A stretch of 64,000 nt of DNA from Gemmatimonadota bacterium (GTDB lineage: Bacteria; Gemmatimonadota; Gemmatimonadetes; Palauibacterales; Palauibacteraceae). Location: NCBI GenBank assembly GCA_046484665.1, contig JAWOIN010000143.1, positions 21,585 through 85,584 of the forward strand, in the 5' to 3' direction. The notes beneath the pieces were generated by a model that searched no databases, was not told the DNA's origin, and worked only from the letters and a program-made list of their open reading frames with translations. Made by a program: the position numbers and the translations under genes. This document shows positions 47,012 to 54,884 of this stretch, piece by piece (within the stretch, counting starts at the first letter, position 1; each line of letters opens with the position of its first letter).

Positions 47012-47489
47012 GTCCCCCTGCCGTGTCTGTCGGGCTGTGCGAATCGTCGCCGGCCGTCGCCGGCGGCCCATCGCGCGGAGCGTCCCGCGCCGGAACGCCG
47101 GACAAGCTAGGCGCGACACCGGGCGCGAACAACTGCGCATCCGGTGCCGTTCGATCCGGCCCGTTCGGGCGGGCCGGGAGGAAGGCGTGTGGGGGGCGCG
47201 CGCCCCATTTTCGGGGTCCCCGTTGCCGGGGTGCCACACGCTCGGGGTCGTCCCTCGCCCGGCCGCCCGGCGGACCCTTTCCCTCCTCTGAAGTCGCACA
47301 CACGGATAAGATACGAATCGGCAAACAATTGCAGGACCGTGACGCGATCCGGGGCGGCGGACGGACGTTTCCCGTTCGCGGCATTCTCCGGTATGTTTCT
47401 TGAACCCGGGGATGGTTCCCGGCGTTCGTGCGAGGCTCCGGGGGGATCAGGTCCCGTCGCATTCCGAACCAGGCGAGCGTAGCGCAATC

Positions 47490-49220
47490 TTGGGTCTTCG
47501 GTTCTCGATCAACGAGAAGTGCACGTCCTGCATGGCGTGCGTCCGGGTCTGCCCCGTCGAGGCGATCTCTGTCTCCGGGCAGGAGGTCCGGATTGTCGCG
47601 AGCTCCTGCATCGAGTGCGGCCTCTGCGTCCCGAGCTGCCATCACGACGCGATCGACGTGGTGGGCGAACTCGACCGCTGCCTGGACTCGATCGTCGCCG
47701 GGCGCGCCGTGCTCGTGCTTCCGGCGGAGGTCACGGTCTACTTCTATCCGGCCATTCCCGAGCAGATCCTGAACGCGTGCTTCGCCGCCGGCTTCGCGTC
47801 CGTGTACTTCGAGACGCTCGGTGACGAGCTCGTGGCGCACGAGTACCTCCGGATCTGGCGGGAGTCCGGCGAGCGAACGTGGCTGCGGTCCACGAGCCCG
47901 ATCGTCGTGAACTACTGCCGGATGCGGCTGCCGGAGCTGCTGCCGTTCCTGGCGCCCGTCGTGACCCCCGCCGTGGCGCTCGCCCGGTACATCCGTCGCA
48001 CGAAGAGCGAGGAGTTCGACCTGATCTACGCGGGAGTCGGCGCTCCGGGCGCGAACGGCGATCGCGGCTCGTTCGACGCCTGCATCTCGTTCGACGAGCT
48101 CGAGCGCGTGTTCGAGCGCGCCGACGTGAACCCGCTCAGCCAGCCCGTCACGCTGTCGCGAATTCCGCCCGAGCGTCGACGCCACCTCTCGCTCGCGGGC
48201 GGCCTTCCGCGCCCGCTGCTCGAGGAGCAGCGCCAGACCTCCCGGCGCTTCAAGAAGGAGCGGGGTCTCTACTCGCTGTCGGCGGTCGCCCGGGCGGTGC
48301 TGGGGGACGAGGGCTCGCTGGGATTCGTCGACATCCTCCCGTTCGACGGGAATCTCGGACATCCGGCCTACGGTCCGGCCGAGGACCTGTTCTGGCGGAA
48401 GGACATCGCAGAGCTGACCGAGCCTCCGCGCGCCGGGGAGCCGGTGGTCGAGAGCGAGGCTCTGCCGAGCCTCAAGGCGACATTCATGCCGGCCCGCGAG
48501 ACCGTTCCGCCGGCGGATCCGCACGAGGTGCAGCGGATCCTCGATGCGATCGGAACGACTCCCGACGGTCGGCACTGGAACACCGGCTCCTGCGGCCACG
48601 CCACGTGCATCGAGTTCGCGACCGCCGTGGCGCGCGGTCGGAGCACCCTGTCCCTGTGCCCGATCTACCTGGCCCGCCAGTACGAGCGCGCCTCCCGCGA
48701 CGCCCTGCACGACGCGCTCACCGGCGTCTTCACGTTCCGGGTGCTCACGGAGCGGCTCGACGAGGAGCTGTCGCGCGCGAGTCGGACGGGCACGTCGATC
48801 GCCCTGCTGTTCGTGGACATCGACAAGTTCAAGCCGATCAACGACACGTACGGCCATGCGACGGGAAACGCGATCCTGCGGGGGATCGCCGGGATCCTCC
48901 AGCGCGCCGTCCGGAGCACGGACATCGTGTGCCGCTACGGCGGCGACGAGTTCGTCGTGATCCTGGTGAACCCCGACAGGCGCGGCGCGGCGCGCGTCGC
49001 CGAGGAGATCCGGGCGCACGCGGAGGAGTTCCGGGTCTCGGTACCGGGCGGCGATGTGGGGGTTACGCTGAGCGTTGGGGTCGCATATCATTCGGGCATT
49101 ACGCGCACGAATCTCACACGTGAGGAGCTGATGGCGGAGGCGGACGCCGCTCTTTACGTGGCGAAGGCTCAGGGTGGGAACACCGTTCACCCGGCGATCG
49201 GAGGGCAGCTCGTTCGATGA
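47490..49220 (+). CDS. Diguanylate cyclase with 2x[4Fe-4S] ferredoxin, degenerate [FeFe]-hydrogenase-like and FeS domains
   Basis: CTSCMACVRVCP, CIECGLCVPSC, GSCGHATC...CP, DALTG, DIDKFK.INDTYGH, RYGGDEF. TTG start uncertain. Confidence 0.85.
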   Translation: MGLRFSINEKCTSCMACVRVCPVEAISVSGQEVRIVASSCIECGLCVPSCHHDAIDVVGELDRCLDSIVAGRAVLVLPAEVTVYFYPAIPEQILNACFAAGFASVYFETLGDELVAHEYLRIWRESGERTWLRSTSPIVVNYCRMRLPELLPFLAPVVTPAVALARYIRRTKSEEFDLIYAGVGAPGANGDRGSFDACISFDELERVFERADVNPLSQPVTLSRIPPERRRHLSLAGGLPRPLLEEQRQTSRRFKKERGLYSLSAVARAVLGDEGSLGFVDILPFDGNLGHPAYGPAEDLFWRKDIAELTEPPRAGEPVVESEALPSLKATFMPARETVPPADPHEVQRILDAIGTTPDGRHWNTGSCGHATCIEFATAVARGRSTLSLCPIYLARQYERASRDALHDALTGVFTFRVLTERLDEELSRASRTGTSIALLFVDIDKFKPINDTYGHATGNAILRGIAGILQRAVRSTDIVCRYGGDEFVVILVNPDRRGAARVAEEIRAHAEEFRVSVPGGDVGVTLSVGVAYHSGITRTNLTREELMAEADAALYVAKAQGGNTVHPAIGGQLVR

Positions 49221-49957
49221 ATCCCGAGGAGTCGGAAGCCAAGGTCGTCGTCGGACTCGATCCCTGGGGCTTGCGGAGGATCGAGAAGCTCCTGGTCGAG
49301 CTCGACGGCGTCGGCTCCCTCAAGATCGTGCCCGACGGGCACGGCGGGATCGACGAGATCCACGTCCTCAGCTCGGCGGATCTCTCGCCGAAGCAGATCG
49401 TCCGGAACATCGAGTCCGCCCTCCTCGCGCAGTTCGGCCTGCAGGTAGACCATCGCAAGATCTCGGTGGCTCGGCTCCGCGGACCCGATCTTTCGCACGC
49501 GGCCGTGCTCGAGCAGACGGCCGAGGCCACGATGGTGGCGCCGGCGCCCATCACGGCTCCCGCACCAGTGCTCGAACGGAGGCTGGTCCTCAAGGGGCTC
49601 CACATCGATCGGAAGGCGGGCCAGCAGGTCACGTGTCGAGTCGAGATCGAGGACGGGGACGCGGTACACTCGGGCGAGGCGGTAGGACCCGACTTCGAGA
49701 AGGGACGGCTGGAGGTAGCCGCTGCCGCCTTGCTCGAGGCTCTGCAGGAATGCTGCGAGGACGGCGTTCACCTCTCGCTCCAGGGGATCTCACGACTGGA
49801 CTCCTTCGGGCGGTCCTTCGTGGTCGCGATCGTGGGAGCAGCCGAGGGGCGTCGCGGAGTCACCCTGGCGGGCATCTCCTACGTCGAGGACTCGCCCGAG
49901 GAGGCGGCCGTCCTCGCATGTCTCCACGCAACGAACCGCTGGCTTTCCAGCCGCTGA
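49217..49957 (+). CDS. Conserved hypothetical protein; C-terminus resembles the LeuA allosteric domain
   Basis: IDEIHVLS...PKQIVRNIES...DHRKISVA, C-terminal LAG...EAAVLACLHATNR. ATGA coupling to the GGDEF gene. Confidence 0.75.
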   Translation: MNPEESEAKVVVGLDPWGLRRIEKLLVELDGVGSLKIVPDGHGGIDEIHVLSSADLSPKQIVRNIESALLAQFGLQVDHRKISVARLRGPDLSHAAVLEQTAEATMVAPAPITAPAPVLERRLVLKGLHIDRKAGQQVTCRVEIEDGDAVHSGEAVGPDFEKGRLEVAAAALLEALQECCEDGVHLSLQGISRLDSFGRSFVVAIVGAAEGRRGVTLAGISYVEDSPEEAAVLACLHATNRWLSSR

Positions 49958-50175
49958 GCCCGCGCGGCTTGCGCGCGGAGGCCGGAAGCACTTTCTTCAG
50001 GTTAGTTCTAGAGGATCTCTCTATCCCGGGAACAGATCGGCACATCTGACTTTTTGAACAGCACCCCCGAGCCCTTGCGGCGGTCGGAAGCTGAGCGGAG
50101 AGGAACCTCCGAGCGGAGCTGAAGCATACCCACTAGCGGTTGGGTATGACTTTCACGCGAAAGGAGGTAGACTCT

Positions 50176-50220
50176 ATGTGGCTTCTTAGCTTGCTCTTCG
50201 GCGGAACGCTGAGGTGGTAA
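50176..50220 (+). CDS. 14-aa peptide MWLLSLLFGGTLRW
   Basis: AAGGAGGT SD at 50161-50168, 7 nt before the ATG. TAA at 50218-50220, 31 nt before the HD-GYP ATG. Confidence 0.7.
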   Translation: MWLLSLLFGGTLRW

Positions 50221-50251
50221 GCCGCGGGGGACTCGGGGGTTCCTTTTGACC

Positions 50252-51613
50252 ATGCTGCAACGCGGACCGGTCCGGACTGCAATTATCACAGCAGCTTTCG
50301 CTGCAGCGGTCCTGCTCGTCTCCCTCGTATTCTATTACCCGCCGACATTAACCCGTCACTATGTTGTTGCTTTTGTTACTCTTGTTGCACTGAGCGTTGC
50401 GGCGACACTGCTACATCTCAAGTTCACTGAGGCTGGGTCCACGTCCTCGATGGACTTCGTTCCAGAACTTGGTGCCATCCTCTTGCTCGGTCCTTCAGGG
50501 GCCGTTTTGGTCACTCTTGCCTCGGAACTCATCTCAGAGTCACTGCTCGAGCGTACGAAGCCGGCCTACAAGAAGCTGTTCAACGCCTCACAGCTAATCC
50601 TTGCGGTAGGTCTAGCCGGTCTCGCATTCGCGGAGTTCGGCGGCTCGCCAAGCCTAGTTAGCTTTCCAATCGACAAGACATTCGCGCCCTTTGTCGTGGC
50701 TGTTCTTGTCTACTTCGCCGTTAACACGGGTACCGTGTCCTACGTCGTGGCGGCGTCGGAGGACGCTGCATTCCTGACTACATGGAAGAAGTTGACGGGC
50801 GGGCTCATCCTCTTCGATTTAACTATGAGTTCGCTCGCGTTCGCGCTGGCCTGGTTCTATGTCCAAATTGAGAACCCACTCTTCGTACTCTTCGCTATCA
50901 TTCCGCTGATTGGACTGCGGTACTCTTACGGTACGAACTTCGAGCTTCAGCGTCTTAACACGGATCTTCTCCGTCTCATGGTCAAGACCATCGAGGCACA
51001 GGATCCATATACCTCCGGGCATTCCCTCAGAGTCTCAGAATGCGCTCGGGCCATTTGCCAAGACCTAGGTCTTCGCGGAAAACAGCAACGGGATATCGAA
51101 ACGGCAGCCCTCCTTCATGATATCGGGAAGATCGATGTAGCCTACAACGAGATCCTGCGGCAAAAAGGTCCGCTTACGCCCGAGCAGAGACAGTTGATCC
51201 GTGATCACCCTGCGCGCGGCGTGGACATTGTCAGGTCTATCCGGAGCATTCGAAGAGAAGTGCTCGAGTGTATCCGGCATCATCACGAGCGGTGGGACGG
51301 TAACGGTTACCCAGACCAACTCTCCGGTTCTGATATTCCCCTTGGTGCCCGAATAATCATGGTTTGTGACACGATCGACGCTATGACAACAGCGCGGCCA
51401 TACCGTGATCCTCTGCCGATCAGCGTTGTACGCGAGGAGTTGATCAAGCACAGCGATGGGCAGTTTGATCGCAAAATCGTGGATGTGGTCTTCCGTTCGG
51501 GAATCCTCGAGAGAATAGAGGAACACTCGCTCAGCCCGATCAATCGAGCCATCTCACCTCAGACACCGACATCCGAAACCCCAGCGTCTTCCCATTCGCG
51601 AGAAGTCAGCTAG
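50252..51613 (+). CDS. Membrane-bound HD-GYP c-di-GMP phosphodiesterase (multi-TM, MASE9-like N-terminus)
   Basis: Several TM helices, DPYTSGHS.RV, LHDIGK, HHERWDGNGYP, RPYR. Confidence 0.9.
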   Translation: MLQRGPVRTAIITAAFAAAVLLVSLVFYYPPTLTRHYVVAFVTLVALSVAATLLHLKFTEAGSTSSMDFVPELGAILLLGPSGAVLVTLASELISESLLERTKPAYKKLFNASQLILAVGLAGLAFAEFGGSPSLVSFPIDKTFAPFVVAVLVYFAVNTGTVSYVVAASEDAAFLTTWKKLTGGLILFDLTMSSLAFALAWFYVQIENPLFVLFAIIPLIGLRYSYGTNFELQRLNTDLLRLMVKTIEAQDPYTSGHSLRVSECARAICQDLGLRGKQQRDIETAALLHDIGKIDVAYNEILRQKGPLTPEQRQLIRDHPARGVDIVRSIRSIRREVLECIRHHHERWDGNGYPDQLSGSDIPLGARIIMVCDTIDAMTTARPYRDPLPISVVREELIKHSDGQFDRKIVDVVFRSGILERIEEHSLSPINRAISPQTPTSETPASSHSREVS

Positions 51614-54600
51614 GCCTCCACGCCCTCACCATACGACTCCATCTTTGGAGAAAGTGGGGAAACCACGACAACCGGTGTTGAGACATGACTTGCCGAAGGT
51701 CGGGTTCTGGGGTCGCATTCTTCTCAAAGACCATCTTATCGATACACCGAAGCTTCCAACTGCTGACACGATCGAGGTCAGACATAATCAAAGCAGCGTT
51801 CCTAAGCCTTTCGCGCGCGTCTGGTTCGTGCCGACCTATGAAAGCATGAAGCCATTCCAGATGATAAAACTCTTGGGCGCCGCGTGAGTCTTCCATACGG
51901 CGACCCTGCAGGTTCTTCCATGTCCGCATGGCAGACGAAGTGTCTCCGCGCTGCAGTTGCGTTAGTACCAGCCACCCCTGCATTTGGGGCACGAACTCCT
52001 CCGCACCAACGGTCTGCGCCGCATTCAAGGCTCGCGCAAAGAGAGCTTCGGCCTCACGGTTCTTCCCTTGGTAGAAACAAGCAGTCGCACCGTTTAGAAG
52101 TCCCAACAGTGCAACATCTAGAGGATCGGGGAGCTTTCGTTGGGCTTCCTCCACTTTCCCGAGCTGGCGATCGACCTCAACCCAATCTCCCTGCTCCATA
52201 GCCCAGCACGCGAGGTTGTTCCAGACAGCAGTTAGCTGGAGTAGATCGTTTCGCTTCTTTGCCAGCCTTTCTACCTCGGAGAAGTAATAGAACGCCTCGT
52301 CCCAGTTAGCTTGTCTGGAAGATACCATTCCCTGAAGAAGCCTGATTCTCTCACTCCATTCCTGGCCTGCGTCTGCAAGGAAAGGAACTGCTCGCTTCAG
52401 GTATTCCTCAGCGGCCGACGAGGACTCGAAAAAAGTCTTGTATACAGCCTCGCACGAGAGAATGCTCAGATGCGTTTCGATGGAATCCTGATCAGGACCT
52501 TGGTCTCGGCTCGAGAGCTCTTTGAGTGTTGAGGAAATCTCCTCTGCCATCTCCGGATCGCTTTGGCGAATAGCGACTTTCAGGCCCCAGTAGAGTGACT
52601 CTGAAGTTGCGAGGACTTGTGCTGACTTGAGAGAGAGTCCCCTTAGTTCGTCGCGTATGCTCTCTAGGAGCGTCCGACTCTCCTGCCAGTTGGATGTCTC
52701 AGTTAGACAGACCACCATCTTCAGCTTGATCCGAATCACTTCCTCCGGCGGGAGCTCCGGCTGAAGCCGCAGGATCTCCGCGAGGTGCTCGCGGGCGCCC
52801 GCGAGCTGTGCGCTTGCCAGCTCGGACTCGGCCATGAGCCACAGCGCCCCGATCTCCTGCTCGAGGGAGAACGCCGCGGCCCGGGCCAGGCCGGCCATCG
52901 AAGCTGCCTCCTCGTGCCCTCCGGACTCCGCGGCCCGTCGGGCCGCCTCCATCGCGTATCGATACGCCGGCTCCCGGTCGTCCCCGAGCAGGAAGTGACG
53001 CGCCAGCCGTCCCGGGCTCGCGTCCGGCTCCCGCTCGAGGGCGCGTGCCGCCCGGAGATGCAGGGCCGTGCGCCGGAGGCCGCTCATCTCCGTGTAGACG
53101 TACTCGCGCATCAGGTCGTTTATGAAGTCGATCCGGTTCTCGTCGTCGAAGATGATCCCGCGTGCGTATAACTCGGCGCCGTCGTCCGCCGCATCGTCGA
53201 GGTCGATGCCGGACACGGTCGCGAGCAGTCGCGGGGTCGAGTTGCGCTCGAGAACGGCCGCGGACTGAAGGATCCGGTTCGCGCCTTCGGGAAGGCCCTT
53301 GAACCGGACGGCGAGCACGCGGCGCAGCCGCTCGTCGTTCAGGGGGTCCCAGGTCTTCGCGTCCTCCGCCCAGTCCTGGGAGGTCAGCGCGGCGAGAAAC
53401 ACCTCGAGCGCGTAGAAGGGGTTCCCCGCGGCCAGGTGCTTGGCGAGCTCGAGCGCGGGATGATCGCGGCCATCCGGCCTGTAGTGCAGCAGGAGCTTCT
53501 CGATCTGGTCGTCGGGAAGCGGCTGAAGACGGATCTCGGTCGTGTATCCCGAGCCGTCCGGGGGGGTGACGGGAAGGCGGCTCGGCAGCTTCCCCGAGCG
53601 TGGGGCGCGAATCGTCGCCACCAGCAGGAAGCGGCTTCCCTGCAGCCGACGCGAGACGTAGTGAAAGAGGCCGGCGGACGTCGCGTCCATCCACTGGACG
53701 TCGTCGATCGTCCAGATGATCGCCCGCTTCTCCGTCGCGAGGCGGAGCACCGTGGCCACTTCCTCGTACAGCCGCCGCCGCCAGGCGCTCGGGTCCACTC
53801 CCTGGTCCTCGGGAACCGACTTCTGCGGAAAGTCCGGGAGAAGGTATCCCAGTCGAGCGAAGCTCCGGTCTCCGTGAGACGTCGCGAGCACCTCCGCCGC
53901 GATCGGGGCGAGCCCCTCGATGACCGGACCGTACGGCAGCTCCTCCTCTCCGGGATAGCACCGGCTCTCGATCAGCTGCGCCTCTTCGAGGACGAGGCTC
54001 CGGCGAAACTCGCGGAGGAGTCTGGACTTCCCGATTCCGGCCTCGCCGGCGACGAGCACGGCCGTGGCGCGGCCGCGGCCCATGTCGCGGACAGCGCCTC
54101 GCAGGAGGTCGAACTCCGCGTCCCGGCCCACGATCGGGCCCTCGCGATCCAGCGGGCCGCCGCCGGCCGGCTCTCCGAGCGGCGCCGCCCGGATGCGCCG
54201 CGCGAGGTCGCGGGTCTCGTCCGAGACGCCCTCCGACGACTCGTGCCGGAGCAGCTCCACGGCCGCCTCGTAGTGCTCGAGCGCGGCGGCGGGGTCGCCG
54301 TGGAGCCAGAGACCCCGCATCAGCGACCTGTGAGCTTCCTCGTCGAGCGGCGACATGTCGACGAGCTTCAGCGCCGCGACGTACATCTCGCCCCACAGGC
54401 CCTTCGACTCGGACTCGGCCACGTGACGACGGAGCGCGGCTTCGGCCAGCCGCCGCAGCCGGACCCGCTCCGCGTCGAGCCACCGGTCGAACTCCCTGGT
54501 CCCGGCCCCCGTGAGGCTCGGCGCGAACGGGCCACGGTAGATCTCCACCGCCTCCCGCAGCCGGCCTTCACGCACCGCGGCCTCGAAAGCGGCTGCGTCC

Positions 54601-54884
54601 AGACGGATCCGGGTGGGGTCGAGGGCCAGCTGGTCGCCCGGGGCGCGCTCCAGAACGCCATCCGCGTGGTTTCGGAGATCGTAGACGGCCTGGCTCAGGG
54701 AGTGGCGGGCCCGCTCCGGGGCGGAGTCCCAGATCAGCTCGGCGAGGTGCTCCCGCGTGAAACTGCGCCGGCCGGAGGCGGCGAGGTACACGAGCAGCGC
54801 GACGTGCTTCCGGGAGCGGAGCCGCACCGCGGCTCCGTCGGGCCCGCGCAGGTCGATGCCGCCGAGAGACTGGATCTGGATCAT
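51606..54884 (-). CDS. SARP/BTAD + AAA ATPase + TPR transcriptional regulator
   Basis: ALLVYLA..REHLAELIW, PLDEEAHRSLM, Walker A GEAGIGKS, DDVQWMD, GNPFY, TPR-like C-terminus. Confidence 0.88.
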   Translation of the reverse strand: MIQIQSLGGIDLRGPDGAAVRLRSRKHVALLVYLAASGRRSFTREHLAELIWDSAPERARHSLSQAVYDLRNHADGVLERAPGDQLALDPTRIRLDAAAFEAAVREGRLREAVEIYRGPFAPSLTGAGTREFDRWLDAERVRLRRLAEAALRRHVAESESKGLWGEMYVAALKLVDMSPLDEEAHRSLMRGLWLHGDPAAALEHYEAAVELLRHESSEGVSDETRDLARRIRAAPLGEPAGGGPLDREGPIVGRDAEFDLLRGAVRDMGRGRATAVLVAGEAGIGKSRLLREFRRSLVLEEAQLIESRCYPGEEELPYGPVIEGLAPIAAEVLATSHGDRSFARLGYLLPDFPQKSVPEDQGVDPSAWRRRLYEEVATVLRLATEKRAIIWTIDDVQWMDATSAGLFHYVSRRLQGSRFLLVATIRAPRSGKLPSRLPVTPPDGSGYTTEIRLQPLPDDQIEKLLLHYRPDGRDHPALELAKHLAAGNPFYALEVFLAALTSQDWAEDAKTWDPLNDERLRRVLAVRFKGLPEGANRILQSAAVLERNSTPRLLATVSGIDLDDAADDGAELYARGIIFDDENRIDFINDLMREYVYTEMSGLRRTALHLRAARALEREPDASPGRLARHFLLGDDREPAYRYAMEAARRAAESGGHEEAASMAGLARAAAFSLEQEIGALWLMAESELASAQLAGAREHLAEILRLQPELPPEEVIRIKLKMVVCLTETSNWQESRTLLESIRDELRGLSLKSAQVLATSESLYWGLKVAIRQSDPEMAEEISSTLKELSSRDQGPDQDSIETHLSILSCEAVYKTFFESSSAAEEYLKRAVPFLADAGQEWSERIRLLQGMVSSRQANWDEAFYYFSEVERLAKKRNDLLQLTAVWNNLACWAMEQGDWVEVDRQLGKVEEAQRKLPDPLDVALLGLLNGATACFYQGKNREAEALFARALNAAQTVGAEEFVPQMQGWLVLTQLQRGDTSSAMRTWKNLQGRRMEDSRGAQEFYHLEWLHAFIGRHEPDARERLRNAALIMSDLDRVSSWKLRCIDKMVFEKNATPEPDLRQVMSQHRLSWFPHFLQRWSRMVRAWRPS

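What the first reader, a model, noticed from the sequence alone, without database searches (positions are those of the whole stretch)
50161..51613. Unannotated 14-aa Trp-terminated peptide gene directly upstream of a membrane HD-GYP: candidate peptide signal controlling c-di-GMP
Seen: a full AAGGAGGT SD, then ATG TGG CTT CTT AGC TTG CTC TTC GGC GGA ACG CTG AGG TGG TAA (MWLLSLLFGGTLRW). It is too short for the ORF track and lies 31 nt before a multi-TM HD-GYP gene. The peptide has a hydrophobic N-part, a GG and a C-terminal xxRW. Established: HD-GYP domains hydrolyse c-di-GMP, and GG is a common leader cleavage site. Inference: the peptide or its TLRW tail is a membrane-associated or exported ligand for the HD-GYP sensor domain, i.e. 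a minimal peptide quorum-sensing system wired to c-di-GMP.
Basis: partly seen in the sequence, partly recalled or inferred. Interest (0 to 1): 0.88.

Follow-up and report, generated by a model that had tools for sequence, protein, structure and literature searches.

The report
Conserved mini-gene leader before HD-GYP
A real, translated 14-codon mini-gene sits inside a conserved folded RNA leader in front of a c-di-GMP-degrading enzyme gene across the phylum Gemmatimonadota, and most likely acts as a built-in switch for that gene rather than as a proven peptide signal.

Summary
AAGGAGGT lies at 50161-50168 and the ORF MWLLSLLFGGTLRW at 50176-50220, 31 nt before a MASE9-HD-GYP gene (50252-51613).

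It is not chance. An SD-led ORF of 14-31 codons precedes HD-GYP orthologues throughout Gemmatimonadota (79 distinct leaders). The peptide is under selection: Gly at -5 is fixed while its third codon position varies freely, and 66 of 79 end in G-x-x-x-W.

The ORF lies inside a structured leader that matches no Rfam family. A covarying long-range helix joins a C-rich box (50063-50081) to a G-rich box starting right after the stop codon (50221-40). There is also a covarying hairpin and repeated GAGCGGAG motifs.

A 246-aa protein of no known family is the near-constant upstream neighbour.

- **Best reading (0.45):** a cis-acting leader peptide, of the translation-attenuation or arrest type, that gates HD-GYP expression.
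- **Main rival (0.3):** a free micropeptide acting on the MASE9 membrane domain.
GG-cleaved quorum signal. The first Gly is not conserved and no exporter is linked.

No experiment exists, and a simple thermodynamic test of RBS unmasking was negative. I found nothing in print. I rate it a new variant of a known kind, interest 0.65.

The parts
50063..50081 (+). 5' strand of the long-range helix P1 (C-rich box ACCCCCGAG + CCCUUGCGGC)
   Evidence: It pairs with 50221-50240 in the MFE fold of the window leader. The own-locus 5'/3' helix has a median of 13 bp against 8 bp for cross-locus pairs. There are compensatory changes in the core, for example CCCUC/GAGGG.
50093..50118 (+). Two GAGCGGAG repeats (50093-50100, 50111-50118) flanking CCUCC (50106-50110), an anti-SD candidate
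   Evidence: These are conserved blocks in alignments A1/A2. RNAalifold pairs CCUCC with the sORF's GGAGG. That pairing is kept in the window's family but not in the sister family or in distant clades. Three to four AGCGR repeats are seen in distant clades.
50125..50148 (+). Hairpin with the conserved loop UAGCGG
   Evidence: Five of 7 pairs show changes on both sides and 94.3% of cells are paired. The stem sequence differs between clades while the loop is kept.
50161..50168 (+). Shine-Dalgarno AAGGAGGT of the small ORF
   Evidence: AAAGGAGG(T), or a close variant, lies 7-9 nt before the start in the related loci.
50176..50220 (+). Small ORF, 14 codons plus TAA: MWLLSLLFGGTLRW
   Evidence: It is conserved as a coding sequence. 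At Gly(-5) the entropy is 0.14/0.00 at codon positions 1/2 and 1.69 at position 3. Among close pairs, 97 codon changes are synonymous and 43 non-synonymous.
50221..50240 (+). 3' strand of P1 (G box 50235-50239), starting at the first base after the stop codon and followed by the U-rich stretch 50240-50247
   Evidence: Across 78 leaders the G box starts a median of 12 nt (range 5-25) after the stop. The next 12 nt are 40% T against 20% background.
50252..51613 (+). MASE9-HD-GYP c-di-GMP phosphodiesterase gene (453 aa), the gene presumably controlled
   Evidence: Pfam and invariant catalytic motifs. It lies downstream of the leader in 58 of 68 covariance-model matches; the other 10 have at most 320 nt left before the contig end.
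49217..49957 (+). 246-aa protein of no known family (p246), the near-constant upstream neighbour
   Evidence: A tblastn match lies directly upstream on the same strand in 70 of 79 distinct loci. Five of the 9 misses have less than 320 nt upstream. No Pfam or NCBIfam family. AF2 model pLDDT 85.7. The C-domain resembles the LiCMS/LeuA regulatory domain (Z 10.9) and the N-domain a CDF-transporter cytoplasmic domain (Z 10.0).
47400..49220 (+). Fe-S / Fe-hydrogenase-like GGDEF diguanylate cyclase, upstream neighbour in the window's order
   Evidence: Pfam. It is upstream of p246 in most loci of the window's order and in 1 distant locus, L124.
51606..54884 (-). Convergent wHTH-BTAD-AAA_16-TPR regulator (1092 aa)
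   Evidence: Pfam. The same architecture lies convergent downstream in L097, L111 and L120. tblastn finds it in 12 of 30 loci with at least 1700 nt downstream.

Best explanation
The 14-codon ORF is a translated, cis-acting leader peptide gene embedded in a structured 5' leader of the MASE9-HD-GYP mRNA. The leader is closed by a long-range helix (P1) between a C-rich box about 95 nt upstream of the ORF's Shine-Dalgarno and a G-rich box that begins at, or a few bases after, the ORF's stop codon and ends 9-20 nt before the HD-GYP start. A ribosome loaded at the very strong SD must invade P1 to reach the last codons. At the stop codon, with the conserved G-x-hydrophobic-x-W end of the nascent chain still in the exit tunnel, it sits against the P1 core. 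I propose that the time the ribosome spends there decides whether P1 stays closed. That dwell time would be set by the nascent peptide, as in arrest peptides that act at termination, and possibly by a ligand or by charged tRNA. Closed P1 would leave the HD-GYP initiation region occluded or, where a U-run follows, terminate transcription. Open P1 would allow HD-GYP to be made. Shown here: the ORF, its coding selection, P1 and the hairpin by covariation, the fixed geometry, and the exclusive link to HD-GYP. Inferred: stalling, the direction of control, and any ligand.
For: (1) The ORF with a full SD is conserved upstream of the HD-GYP. It is complete in 16 of 19 orthologue loci and in 62 of 68 covariance-model matches from 66 of 145 genomes of the order (5 cut by contig ends, 1 masked by N). 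It is also seen in further clades of the phylum.
(2) Selection is on the peptide, strongest next to the stop. W is the last residue in 53 of 79 distinct peptides and within the last two in 69 of 79. Gly(-5) is present in 52 of 53 with a free third codon position. Position -3 is hydrophobic. Lengths of 14-31 aa differ at the N-terminal side.
(3) No peptide exceeds 31 aa, so all would still lie inside the ribosome tunnel at termination. Thirteen of 79 are only 14 aa, too short to span a membrane (tunnel capacity and helix length are general knowledge).
(4) P1 is real. The own-locus helix has a median of 13 bp against 8 bp cross-locus. The structure is 91.2% paired against 83.2% in shuffles (0 of 500 reach it), and 11 pairs have changes on both sides. 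Slid controls give 33-49%.
(5) Geometry is fixed. The P1 3' strand begins 0-15 nt after the stop in most loci, and the G box starts a median of 12 nt after it. Tandem in-frame duplications of the C-terminal motif in at least 6 lineages leave the stop-to-P1 distance unchanged.
(6) A divergent member (L197) ends in W-P-P-P-stop, and polyproline is a known stalling motif from general knowledge.
(7) The element is single-copy per genome and always precedes this gene.
(8) There is a precedent: a 14-aa E. coli leader peptide that arrests at its own stop codon and affects the downstream gene (PMC11890864, abstract and passages read).
(9) Contigs of two RNA libraries cover 50090-50240 and 50102-50237 at 3 mismatches each. 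One runs on into a relative's HD-GYP start. This hint is weak, because DNA carry-over is not excluded.
Against: There is no experimental evidence of stalling or of regulation.
- A nearest-neighbour model with a 28-nt ribosome footprint at the stop codon did not raise the unpaired probability of the HD-GYP initiation window. It went from 0.38 to 0.38 over 69 leaders, rose by more than 0.1 in 2 and fell in 3. In the window itself it fell from 0.49 to 0.16.
- The G box lies 9-20 nt from the HD-GYP start, too far to be a standard SD. A terminator-like U-run (at least 5 T in 8) follows it in only 21 of 78 leaders.
- In L008 the 5' half of the leader, including the C box, is replaced, yet the ORF is intact and encodes the identical peptide.
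- Distant clades also conserve the N-terminal half (MFSSLFDFFG-like). The composition (L 21%, F 10%, W 9%) would also suit a membrane-active free peptide.
- The anti-SD pairing is not conserved outside the window's family.
Confidence: 0.45

Rival explanations
1. The ORF encodes a free micropeptide that acts in trans on the products of the module. Most plausibly it is an intramembrane ligand or subunit of the MASE9 domain of the HD-GYP. Alternatively it acts on p246 or on the TPR regulator. The RNA structure would then only co-regulate the two genes.
For: The peptide is under selection over its whole length in distant clades. Its composition is very hydrophobic and aromatic. It is strictly linked with the MASE9-HD-GYP gene. 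The paper that defined MASE9 argues that ligand binding occurs within the membrane (bioRxiv 10.1101/2021.11.05.467447, passages read). L008 keeps the ORF without P1. A TPR-containing regulator is a frequent convergent neighbour.
Against: Thirteen of 79 peptides have 14 aa and cannot span a bilayer. Length varies from 14 to 31 aa through N-terminal changes and C-terminal tandem repeats, which is hard to reconcile with a fixed helix-helix interface. The stop codon is locked to P1, which a free-standing gene would not need. An HD-GYP homologue at 36% identity (L020) has no such ORF, and neither do 7 of 7 more distant MASE9-HD-GYP homologues.
Confidence: 0.3
2. One reading: the peptide is cleaved after GG and exported, and the TLRW tail is a quorum-sensing ligand sensed from outside by the HD-GYP's membrane domain.
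For: The ORF is real, conserved and highly translatable. The tandem C-terminal repeats (GGTVRW x3 in L031, TGKILW x2 in L062-L064, and others) look like multi-copy core peptides. The genome holds one Peptidase_C39 match in a 704-aa frame.
Against: The first Gly of 'GG' is G in only 22 of 53 W-terminal peptides. The sister family has A-G-N-I-T-W-G and distant clades have N-G, R-G, P-G or S-G. Only 8-9 residues precede GG. The C39 match is on another contig, and the conserved neighbours are p246, a GGDEF protein and a regulator, not an exporter. The motif is conserved across a phylum rather than diversified. The paper that defined MASE9 describes its periplasmic segments as short and poorly conserved.
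Confidence: 0.07
3. The ORF serves only as a ribosome loading site, by translational coupling or 70S re-initiation, for an HD-GYP gene that lacks a good SD. The peptide sequence itself is irrelevant.
For: The ORF has a very strong SD, while HD-GYP has no canonical SD at normal spacing. The stop-to-start distance of 24-68 nt is within the reach of re-initiation.
Against: The peptide is conserved at the amino-acid level with free wobble positions. That is not expected if only translation matters.
Confidence: 0.1
4. Chance ORF, or a purely non-coding RNA element.
For: The ORF is very short, and its region is part of a conserved RNA.
Against: The reading frame, start, SD and stop position are kept in 79 distinct leaders. 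All indels and repeats are in frame. The wobble pattern at Gly(-5) and the hydrophobic second-position pattern at -3 also argue for coding.
Confidence: 0.02

Closest known systems
PepNL of E. coli (14-aa leader peptide upstream of pepN; PMC11890864, abstract and passages read)
   Same: A 14-codon ORF with its own start lies upstream of the gene it influences. Arrest happens at the ORF's own stop codon and depends on the amino-acid sequence, with the whole peptide inside the tunnel.
   Different: There is no sequence relation. Stalling is not shown here. [quoted passage not shown] The stop codon here is mostly TAA or TAG (73 of 79), not UGA.
TnaC and the erm/cat-type leader peptides (translation or transcription attenuation by nascent-peptide stalling). 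For TnaC I saw only the search-listing abstracts of PMC8429421 and PMC8450073; the erm/cat systems are recalled.
   Same: A short, often hydrophobic leader ORF with a strong SD. A ribosome paused in or at the end of the leader remodels downstream RNA or blocks termination, so that the next gene is expressed.
   Different: The regulated gene is a c-di-GMP phosphodiesterase, not tryptophanase or a resistance gene. The masking helix is long-range (about 170 nt apart) and encloses the whole leader ORF, instead of being a set of local alternative hairpins. No inducer is known.
SecM-secA and MifM-yidC2 monitoring substrates (recalled; SecM seen only in search-listing abstracts)
   Same: An arrest near the end of an upstream ORF exposes the initiation region of a downstream gene for a membrane-related protein.
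   Different: Those peptides are far longer and sense pulling force on an exposed N-terminus. A 14-31 aa chain cannot leave the tunnel before termination.
Small hydrophobic pheromone precursors next to their receptors (SHP/Rgg, ComS/ComR of streptococci; recalled, not tested)
   Same: An unannotated 15-25 aa hydrophobic ORF lies next to a signalling gene, with a conserved C-terminal part and a variable N-terminal part. A TPR-containing regulator is nearby in part of the loci.
   Different: Those systems belong to Firmicutes, use cytoplasmic RRNPP receptors, and diversify between strains. Here the motif is conserved across a phylum of diderm bacteria and is locked into an RNA structure.
Rfam c-di-GMP riboswitches and other Rfam leaders
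   Same: A structured 5' leader in front of a c-di-GMP turnover gene.
   Different: No Rfam 15 family matches 49700-50500 at E up to 10. The leader contains a translated ORF.

Membership tests
Leader-peptide attenuation / ribosome arrest peptide systems | A short ORF with its own ribosome-binding site directly upstream of, and on the same strand as, the regulated gene | tested here: met
Leader-peptide attenuation / ribosome arrest peptide systems | The amino-acid sequence, not just translation, is conserved, most strongly near the stall site | tested here: met
   G(-5), hydrophobic (-3) and W(-1), with free wobble positions. The N-terminal length is variable.
Leader-peptide attenuation / ribosome arrest peptide systems | An RNA structure controlling the downstream gene overlaps the footprint of the paused ribosome | tested here: inconclusive
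   The geometry is met: the P1 3' strand starts 0-15 nt after the stop. The thermodynamic model shows no gain in accessibility of the HD-GYP start.
Leader-peptide attenuation / ribosome arrest peptide systems | The ribosome stalls at a defined codon, and downstream expression changes with it | not testable with these tools
   This needs toeprinting, Ribo-seq or reporters.
Double-glycine leader peptides (bacteriocin or quorum-signal precursors) | A conserved GG (or GA/GS) at the cleavage site after a leader of about 15 or more residues | tested here: not met
   Position -6 is G in 22 of 53. Only 8-9 residues precede it.
Double-glycine leader peptides (bacteriocin or quorum-signal precursors) | A linked C39-peptidase ABC exporter | tested here: not met
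   The only PF03412 match in the genome is on contig C116. The conserved neighbours are p246, GGDEF and the BTAD-AAA-TPR regulator.
Any Rfam 15 RNA family (including c-di-GMP-I/II riboswitches) | A covariance-model match | tested here: not met
   No match at E up to 10 in 49700-50500.
HD-GYP c-di-GMP phosphodiesterase with MASE9 sensor (the downstream gene) | HD_5/HD domain with the HD and HHE..DG.GYP motifs, and an N-terminal MASE9 domain | tested here: met
   HD_5 1e-36; MASE9 31.3 bits against a cut-off of 24.3; invariant H288 D289, H343 H344 E345, G351 Y352 P353 in G015 numbering.
Known small-protein families (Pfam, NCBIfam) | A profile match of the peptide | tested here: not met
   The 31-aa (L031) and 23-aa (L111) relatives have no family. 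The 14-aa window peptide is below the tools' 20-residue minimum.

The most novel reading that the evidence does not exclude
The released 14-31 aa peptide is the natural intramembrane ligand of the MASE9 sensor domain. It would be made from a leader whose own translation is gated by the RNA structure, and perhaps by the ligand-binding neighbour p246 acting on the repeated GAGCGGAG motifs. The module would then be a self-contained peptide-to-c-di-GMP circuit: the first ligand known for any MASE9 domain, and a dual-function leader peptide.
Probability: 0.15. Interest if true: 0.85.

Novelty: new variant of a known kind. Interest (0 to 1): 0.65.

Why it matters
What controls most membrane-bound c-di-GMP enzymes is unknown. 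According to the paper that defined it, MASE9 has no known ligand.

Here a phylum-wide, single-copy module offers a concrete and testable control point for an HD-GYP phosphodiesterase. It consists of an unannotated, translated mini-ORF locked into a covarying RNA helix, next to a protein of no known family built from two ligand-binding-type folds.

If the peptide works as a nascent chain, it adds a new arrest or attenuation family in a barely studied phylum and links translation status to c-di-GMP. If it works as a free peptide, it gives MASE9 its first ligand.

Either way, the leader RNA and the ORF are missing from Rfam, Pfam and NCBIfam, and automatic annotation does not see them.

Tried and rejected
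- **Rfam.** An E-value scan of 49700-50500 gave 0 matches.
- **Local promoter/terminator scan of 49800-51900.** Nothing in the leader, and counts were at shuffle level.
- **Complex prediction.** The 31-aa relative (L031) with residues 1-235 of its own HD-GYP gave 'no answer' (score 0.02, mark 0.32; controls not run). This is no evidence either way.
- **Thermodynamic unmasking test.** No change in accessibility of the HD-GYP start. It counts against the simplest form of my model, but it ignores sterics and kinetics.
- **Fusion by frameshift or read-through.** Rejected, because the stop-to-start distances (31, 33, 30, 29, 48, 26 nt and so on) fall in all three phases.
- **Special rare-codon enrichment of the ORF.** Rejected. 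GC3 of the ORF (0.62) equals that of HD-GYP (0.63), and it is lower in only 29 of 63 loci.
- **Paralogous peptides elsewhere in the genome.** None found.
- **Distant MASE9-HD-GYP homologues from the metagenome scan.** Of 80 loci returned, I examined only the 9 whose match reaches into the MASE9 part. Two (L208, L209) have the leader and ORF. Seven at 30-34% identity have none.
- **Pfam and NCBIfam on the peptides and on p246.** Nothing. The protein atlas on p246 returned only unnamed Gemmatimonadota clusters.
- **RNA libraries.** The parts of 49700-51700 without contig cover say nothing. Contigs cannot show transcript ends. The 136-nt contig with adapters at both ends may be PCR copies of one fragment.
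- **Habitat labels.** The labels of runs holding small shares were not used.
- **Ideas considered but not tested.** CsrA- or TRAP-like binding to the repeated motifs was only considered; several hairpin loops lack GGA. A resemblance of G-x-x-hydrophobic-x-aromatic-COOH to the C-terminal signal of outer-membrane proteins is recalled only.
- **Literature.** Searches with MASE9; HD-GYP + leader peptide; small protein + c-di-GMP + phosphodiesterase + uORF; Gemmatimonad + HD-GYP; and Gemmatimonad/riboswitch/leader peptide terms listed no paper describing this element. Supplements were closed, so the MASE9 paper's Figure S5 alignment was not seen.
Full report
**1. The observation**

Reading the window confirms every element of the finding:
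- AAGGAGGT at 50161-50168;
- a 7-nt spacer, then ATG at 50176;
- 14 sense codons giving MWLLSLLFGGTLRW, and TAA at 50218-50220;
- 31 nt later, the ATG (50252) of a 453-aa ORF ending at 51613.

Pfam assigns that ORF MASE9 (31.3 bits against a cut-off of 24.3; residues 37-220) and HD_5 (1e-36; residues 242-409). The HD and HHE..DG.GYP residues are invariant in 13 orthologues. The octamer occurs 4 times in the window against 0.93 expected. Of 817 SD-led ORFs of 10-35 aa in the 3.1-Mb genome, only this one ends G-x-x-x-W.

**2. Conservation of the small ORF**

*Orthologue loci.* A protein search of 41 related genomes returned 20 loci with full-length or nearly full-length orthologues at 36-100% identity. 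Of the 19 that are not the window:
- 16 have a complete SD-led small ORF at the same place;
- L019 has a deletion that truncates it and removes the G box;
- L015 has no upstream DNA;
- L020 (36% identity, preceded by a kinase-like ORF) has none.

*Order-wide search.* I built a covariance model of the 5' leader up to the ORF's ATG (123 positions). It hit 66 of 145 genomes of the order, once each except G088 and G090, which have two copies. I fetched all 68 matches.
- The ORF is complete in 62. Five are cut by contig ends and 1 is masked by N.
- The next gene is the HD-GYP in 58. The other 10 have at most 320 nt left before the contig end.

The model confirmed 76 of them (50 of 80; 26 of 39).
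- Titles were shown for the first 80 only. Of the 50 confirmed among them, 48 carry Gemmatimonadota-type labels, including Gemmatimonadales, Longimicrobiales, Ca. Benthicola and Ca. Kutchimonas. The last two belong to the order Ca. Palauibacterales.
- The two exceptions are labelled 'Phycisphaerales' (L105) and 'uncultured bacterium' (L155).
- The 30 unconfirmed listed stretches come from unrelated taxa, and I take them as chance matches.

*Phylum sample.* In an even sample of the phylum the model hit 13 of 151 genomes. This is a lower bound, because the model is biased towards the window's order.

*More distant homologues.* Seven MASE9-HD-GYP homologues from metagenomes at 30-34% identity have no such leader.

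**3. The ORF is coding**

Pooling gave 79 distinct leaders.
- Peptides are 14-31 aa long.
- Start codons are ATG 67, GTG 9 and TTG 3. Stop codons are TAA 43, TAG 30 and TGA 6.
- 53 end in W, and 69 have W in the last two residues.
- 66 match G-x-x-x-W with at most one trailing residue.

I anchored the 53 W-terminal ORFs on the stop codon. The Gly codon at -5 has entropy 0.14/0.00 at positions 1/2 and 1.69 at position 3. Position -3 keeps its second base (hydrophobic residue) while positions 1 and 3 vary. Among close pairs, 97 codon changes are synonymous and 43 are not; these pairs are not independent.

The window's own family reads ...GGT[LV][RK]W. The sister family reads ...AGNI[TAS]WG. Distant clades have 20-24 aa peptides such as MFSSLFDFFGSLLSLLGNGFVSW. 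The C-terminal twelve residues align across these groups (LLSLL-x-x-G-x-hydrophobic-x-W), while the N-terminal part is present or absent.

In-frame tandem duplications of the C-terminal unit occur in at least six lineages:
- GGTVRW x3 (L031);
- FGGTVRW x2 (L038);
- TGKILW x2 (L062-L064);
- GTIGW x2 (L067);
- GLIRI x2 (L083);
- AGNI-x x2 (L065).

One divergent member (L197) ends W-E-W-P-P-P-stop.

**4. The RNA around the ORF**

The leader is conserved at the nucleotide level. It has no Rfam match.

RNAalifold on 15 leaders predicts three elements:
- a long-range helix (P1) between a C-rich box and a G-rich box;
- a hairpin with the loop UAGCGG;
- pairing of CCUCC with the ORF's GGAGG.

On that structure 91.2% of cells pair against 83.2% in shuffles (0 of 500 reach it). 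Eleven pairs change on both sides. Slid controls give 33-49%.

Over 77 leaders, the best helix between a locus's own 5' and 3' boxes has a median of 13 bp, against 8 bp when boxes of different loci are combined. The core itself shows compensatory variants, such as CCCUC/GAGGG and CCUCCC/GGGAGG.

In the window, P1 is 50063-50081 with 50221-50240: about 19 pairs with one bulge, forming in the MFE structure. Its 3' strand therefore starts at the first base after TAA. Across 78 leaders:
- the G box starts a median of 12 nt (range 5-25) after the stop;
- the following 12 nt are 40% T against 20% background;
- a run of at least 5 T in 8 follows in 21 of 78, mostly in the sister family.

Two to four copies of (G/U)AGCG(G/A) precede the hairpin. 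The anti-SD pairing is confined to the window's family.

**5. The neighbours**

*Upstream: p246.* A 246-aa protein with no Pfam or NCBIfam family (49217-49957) lies directly upstream in 70 of 79 loci. Five of the nine misses lack upstream sequence. L048, L053, L056 and L157 truly lack it. It has 748 database relatives at E up to 0.001; the few of the 120 listed that a source names are called hypothetical protein or MlaB component, and the organisms given are Gemmatimonadota. Its AF2 model (pLDDT 85.7) has two domains:
- an N-domain like the cytoplasmic domain of CDF metal transporters (CzcD; Z 10.0, rmsd 1.8 Å, 67 residues aligned);
- a C-domain like the amino-acid-binding regulatory domain of citramalate/isopropylmalate synthase (Z 10.9, rmsd 2.8 Å, 113 residues aligned).

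*Further upstream.* A Fe-S/hydrogenase-like GGDEF cyclase precedes p246 in the window's order.

*Downstream.* A convergent wHTH-BTAD-AAA_16-TPR regulator follows the HD-GYP in the window, in L097, L111 and L120, and in 12 of 30 loci with enough sequence.

*Composition.* The HD-GYP has lower GC3 than p246 in 62 of 63 loci (0.63 against 0.78). The low-GC island seen in the window is therefore a conserved trait and does not mark recent transfer.

**6. Expression hints**

Two metatranscriptome libraries from different studies hold contigs over 50090-50240 and 50102-50237, with 3 mismatches each. One runs on into a relative's HD-GYP start. These are contigs, DNA carry-over is possible, and the runs were found through this very stretch. 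I treat this as a weak hint only.

**7. Mechanism**

*What the architecture shows.* A very strong SD loads ribosomes onto an ORF that sits inside the loop closed by P1. The stop codon abuts the P1 3' strand. The conserved residues are the ones closest to the peptidyl-transferase centre at termination. No peptide is long enough to leave the exit tunnel.

*What it resembles.* This is the logic of leader-peptide attenuation and of arrest peptides that act at termination. A 14-aa E. coli example arrests at its own stop codon (PMC11890864).

*My reading (0.45).* The ORF is a cis-acting leader peptide whose termination kinetics decide whether P1 stays closed. Closed P1 would occlude HD-GYP initiation or, where a U-run follows, terminate transcription. 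Open P1 would allow HD-GYP to be made.

*What counts against it.*
- The simple thermodynamic test gave no gain in accessibility.
- The G box is not at SD distance from the HD-GYP start.
- L008 keeps the ORF without the C box.
- The N-terminal half is conserved in distant clades.

*The rivals.* The free-micropeptide rival stays at 0.3. It is helped by the argument in the MASE9 paper that ligand binding occurs within the membrane. It is hurt by the 14-aa length, by the length variation and by the stop-P1 lock. The GG-cleaved quorum-signal version gets about 0.07. Pure coupling gets 0.1. Chance or non-coding gets 0.02.

**8. Novelty**

The five literature searches listed nothing on this element. 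The passages of the MASE9 paper that I read do not mention it, and its supplements were closed. The kind (a leader peptide, or a small protein next to its partner) is known. The family, the long-range helix enclosing the ORF, the regulated gene class and the phylum are new. I rate it a new variant of a known kind, interest 0.65.

Noticed in passing
window 49217-49957: The 246-aa protein upstream has no known family. Its predicted structure joins a CDF-transporter-CTD-like domain (residues 13-88) to a LeuA/citramalate-synthase regulatory-domain-like domain (121-246) through a disordered linker. This suggests a soluble small-molecule sensor. It is the most constant neighbour of the leader across the phylum.
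   Followed up: partly
window 51606-54884 (-); L097:2531-5887, L111:1746-5909, L120:2363-5653: A large wHTH-BTAD-AAA_16-TPR (STAND-type) regulator lies convergent to the HD-GYP in several clades. The module may therefore have four or five parts. TPR domains bind peptides in other systems (recalled).
   Followed up: partly
window 50000-52600: The low-GC island (about 55% against 70%) covers the leader, the HD-GYP and the 3' end of the convergent regulator. Low GC3 of the HD-GYP relative to p246 holds in 62 of 63 related loci, so it is an old, conserved property.
   Followed up: partly
many related loci (e.g. G009:C80, G007:C47, G011:C40, G032:C222, G027:C59; L040, L061, L066, L077, L082): MAG contigs very often end inside or just beyond the HD-GYP gene or the leader. 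This hints at assembly or binning trouble at this compositionally odd locus.
   Followed up: no
window 49960-49998: Right after the p246 stop lies a GC-rich hairpin (CCGCGCG-GCUUG-CGCGCGG) followed by CUUUCUUCA. GGCTTGCG and TTTCTT recur at this place in many relatives (output). It is either a terminator of the upstream operon or a promoter-like element; I did not resolve which.
   Followed up: no
L031, L038, L062-L064, L065, L067, L083: The C-terminal peptide unit is duplicated in tandem and in frame in at least six lineages. This is either a mutational hotspot (short GG/TGG repeats) or selection for copy number.
   Followed up: partly
L197:3303-3520: A divergent member from a lower-GC organism has a 28-aa ORF ending W-E-W-P-P-P-stop. 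It sits between a p246 homologue (32% identity) and an HD-GYP whose N-terminal domain no longer matches the window's by tblastn.
   Followed up: partly
L008 (G007:C47): Within the window's genus, one genome has the 5' half of the leader (C box, GAGCGGAG repeats) replaced by unrelated sequence. It keeps the hairpin, the SD, an ORF encoding the identical peptide, and the G box.
   Followed up: no
window 47400-49220: The GGDEF cyclase carries 4Fe-4S ferredoxin-like and Fe-only-hydrogenase-like domains. It is a possible redox or H2-related sensor feeding the same c-di-GMP module.
   Followed up: no
window 50102-50237 (run X19): An RNA-library contig of depth 8.8 has sequencing adapters directly at both ends of this 136-nt stretch. 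Another library's contig ends with an adapter right after a relative's G box. This could be a discrete small RNA or just PCR copies.
   Followed up: no
G088 (C51, C287) and G090 (C116, C83): Two genomes carry two copies of the leader. In G088 both copies are followed by an HD-GYP. In G090 one copy is, and the other contig ends 320 nt after the ORF. This is either a duplication or a mixed bin.
   Followed up: no
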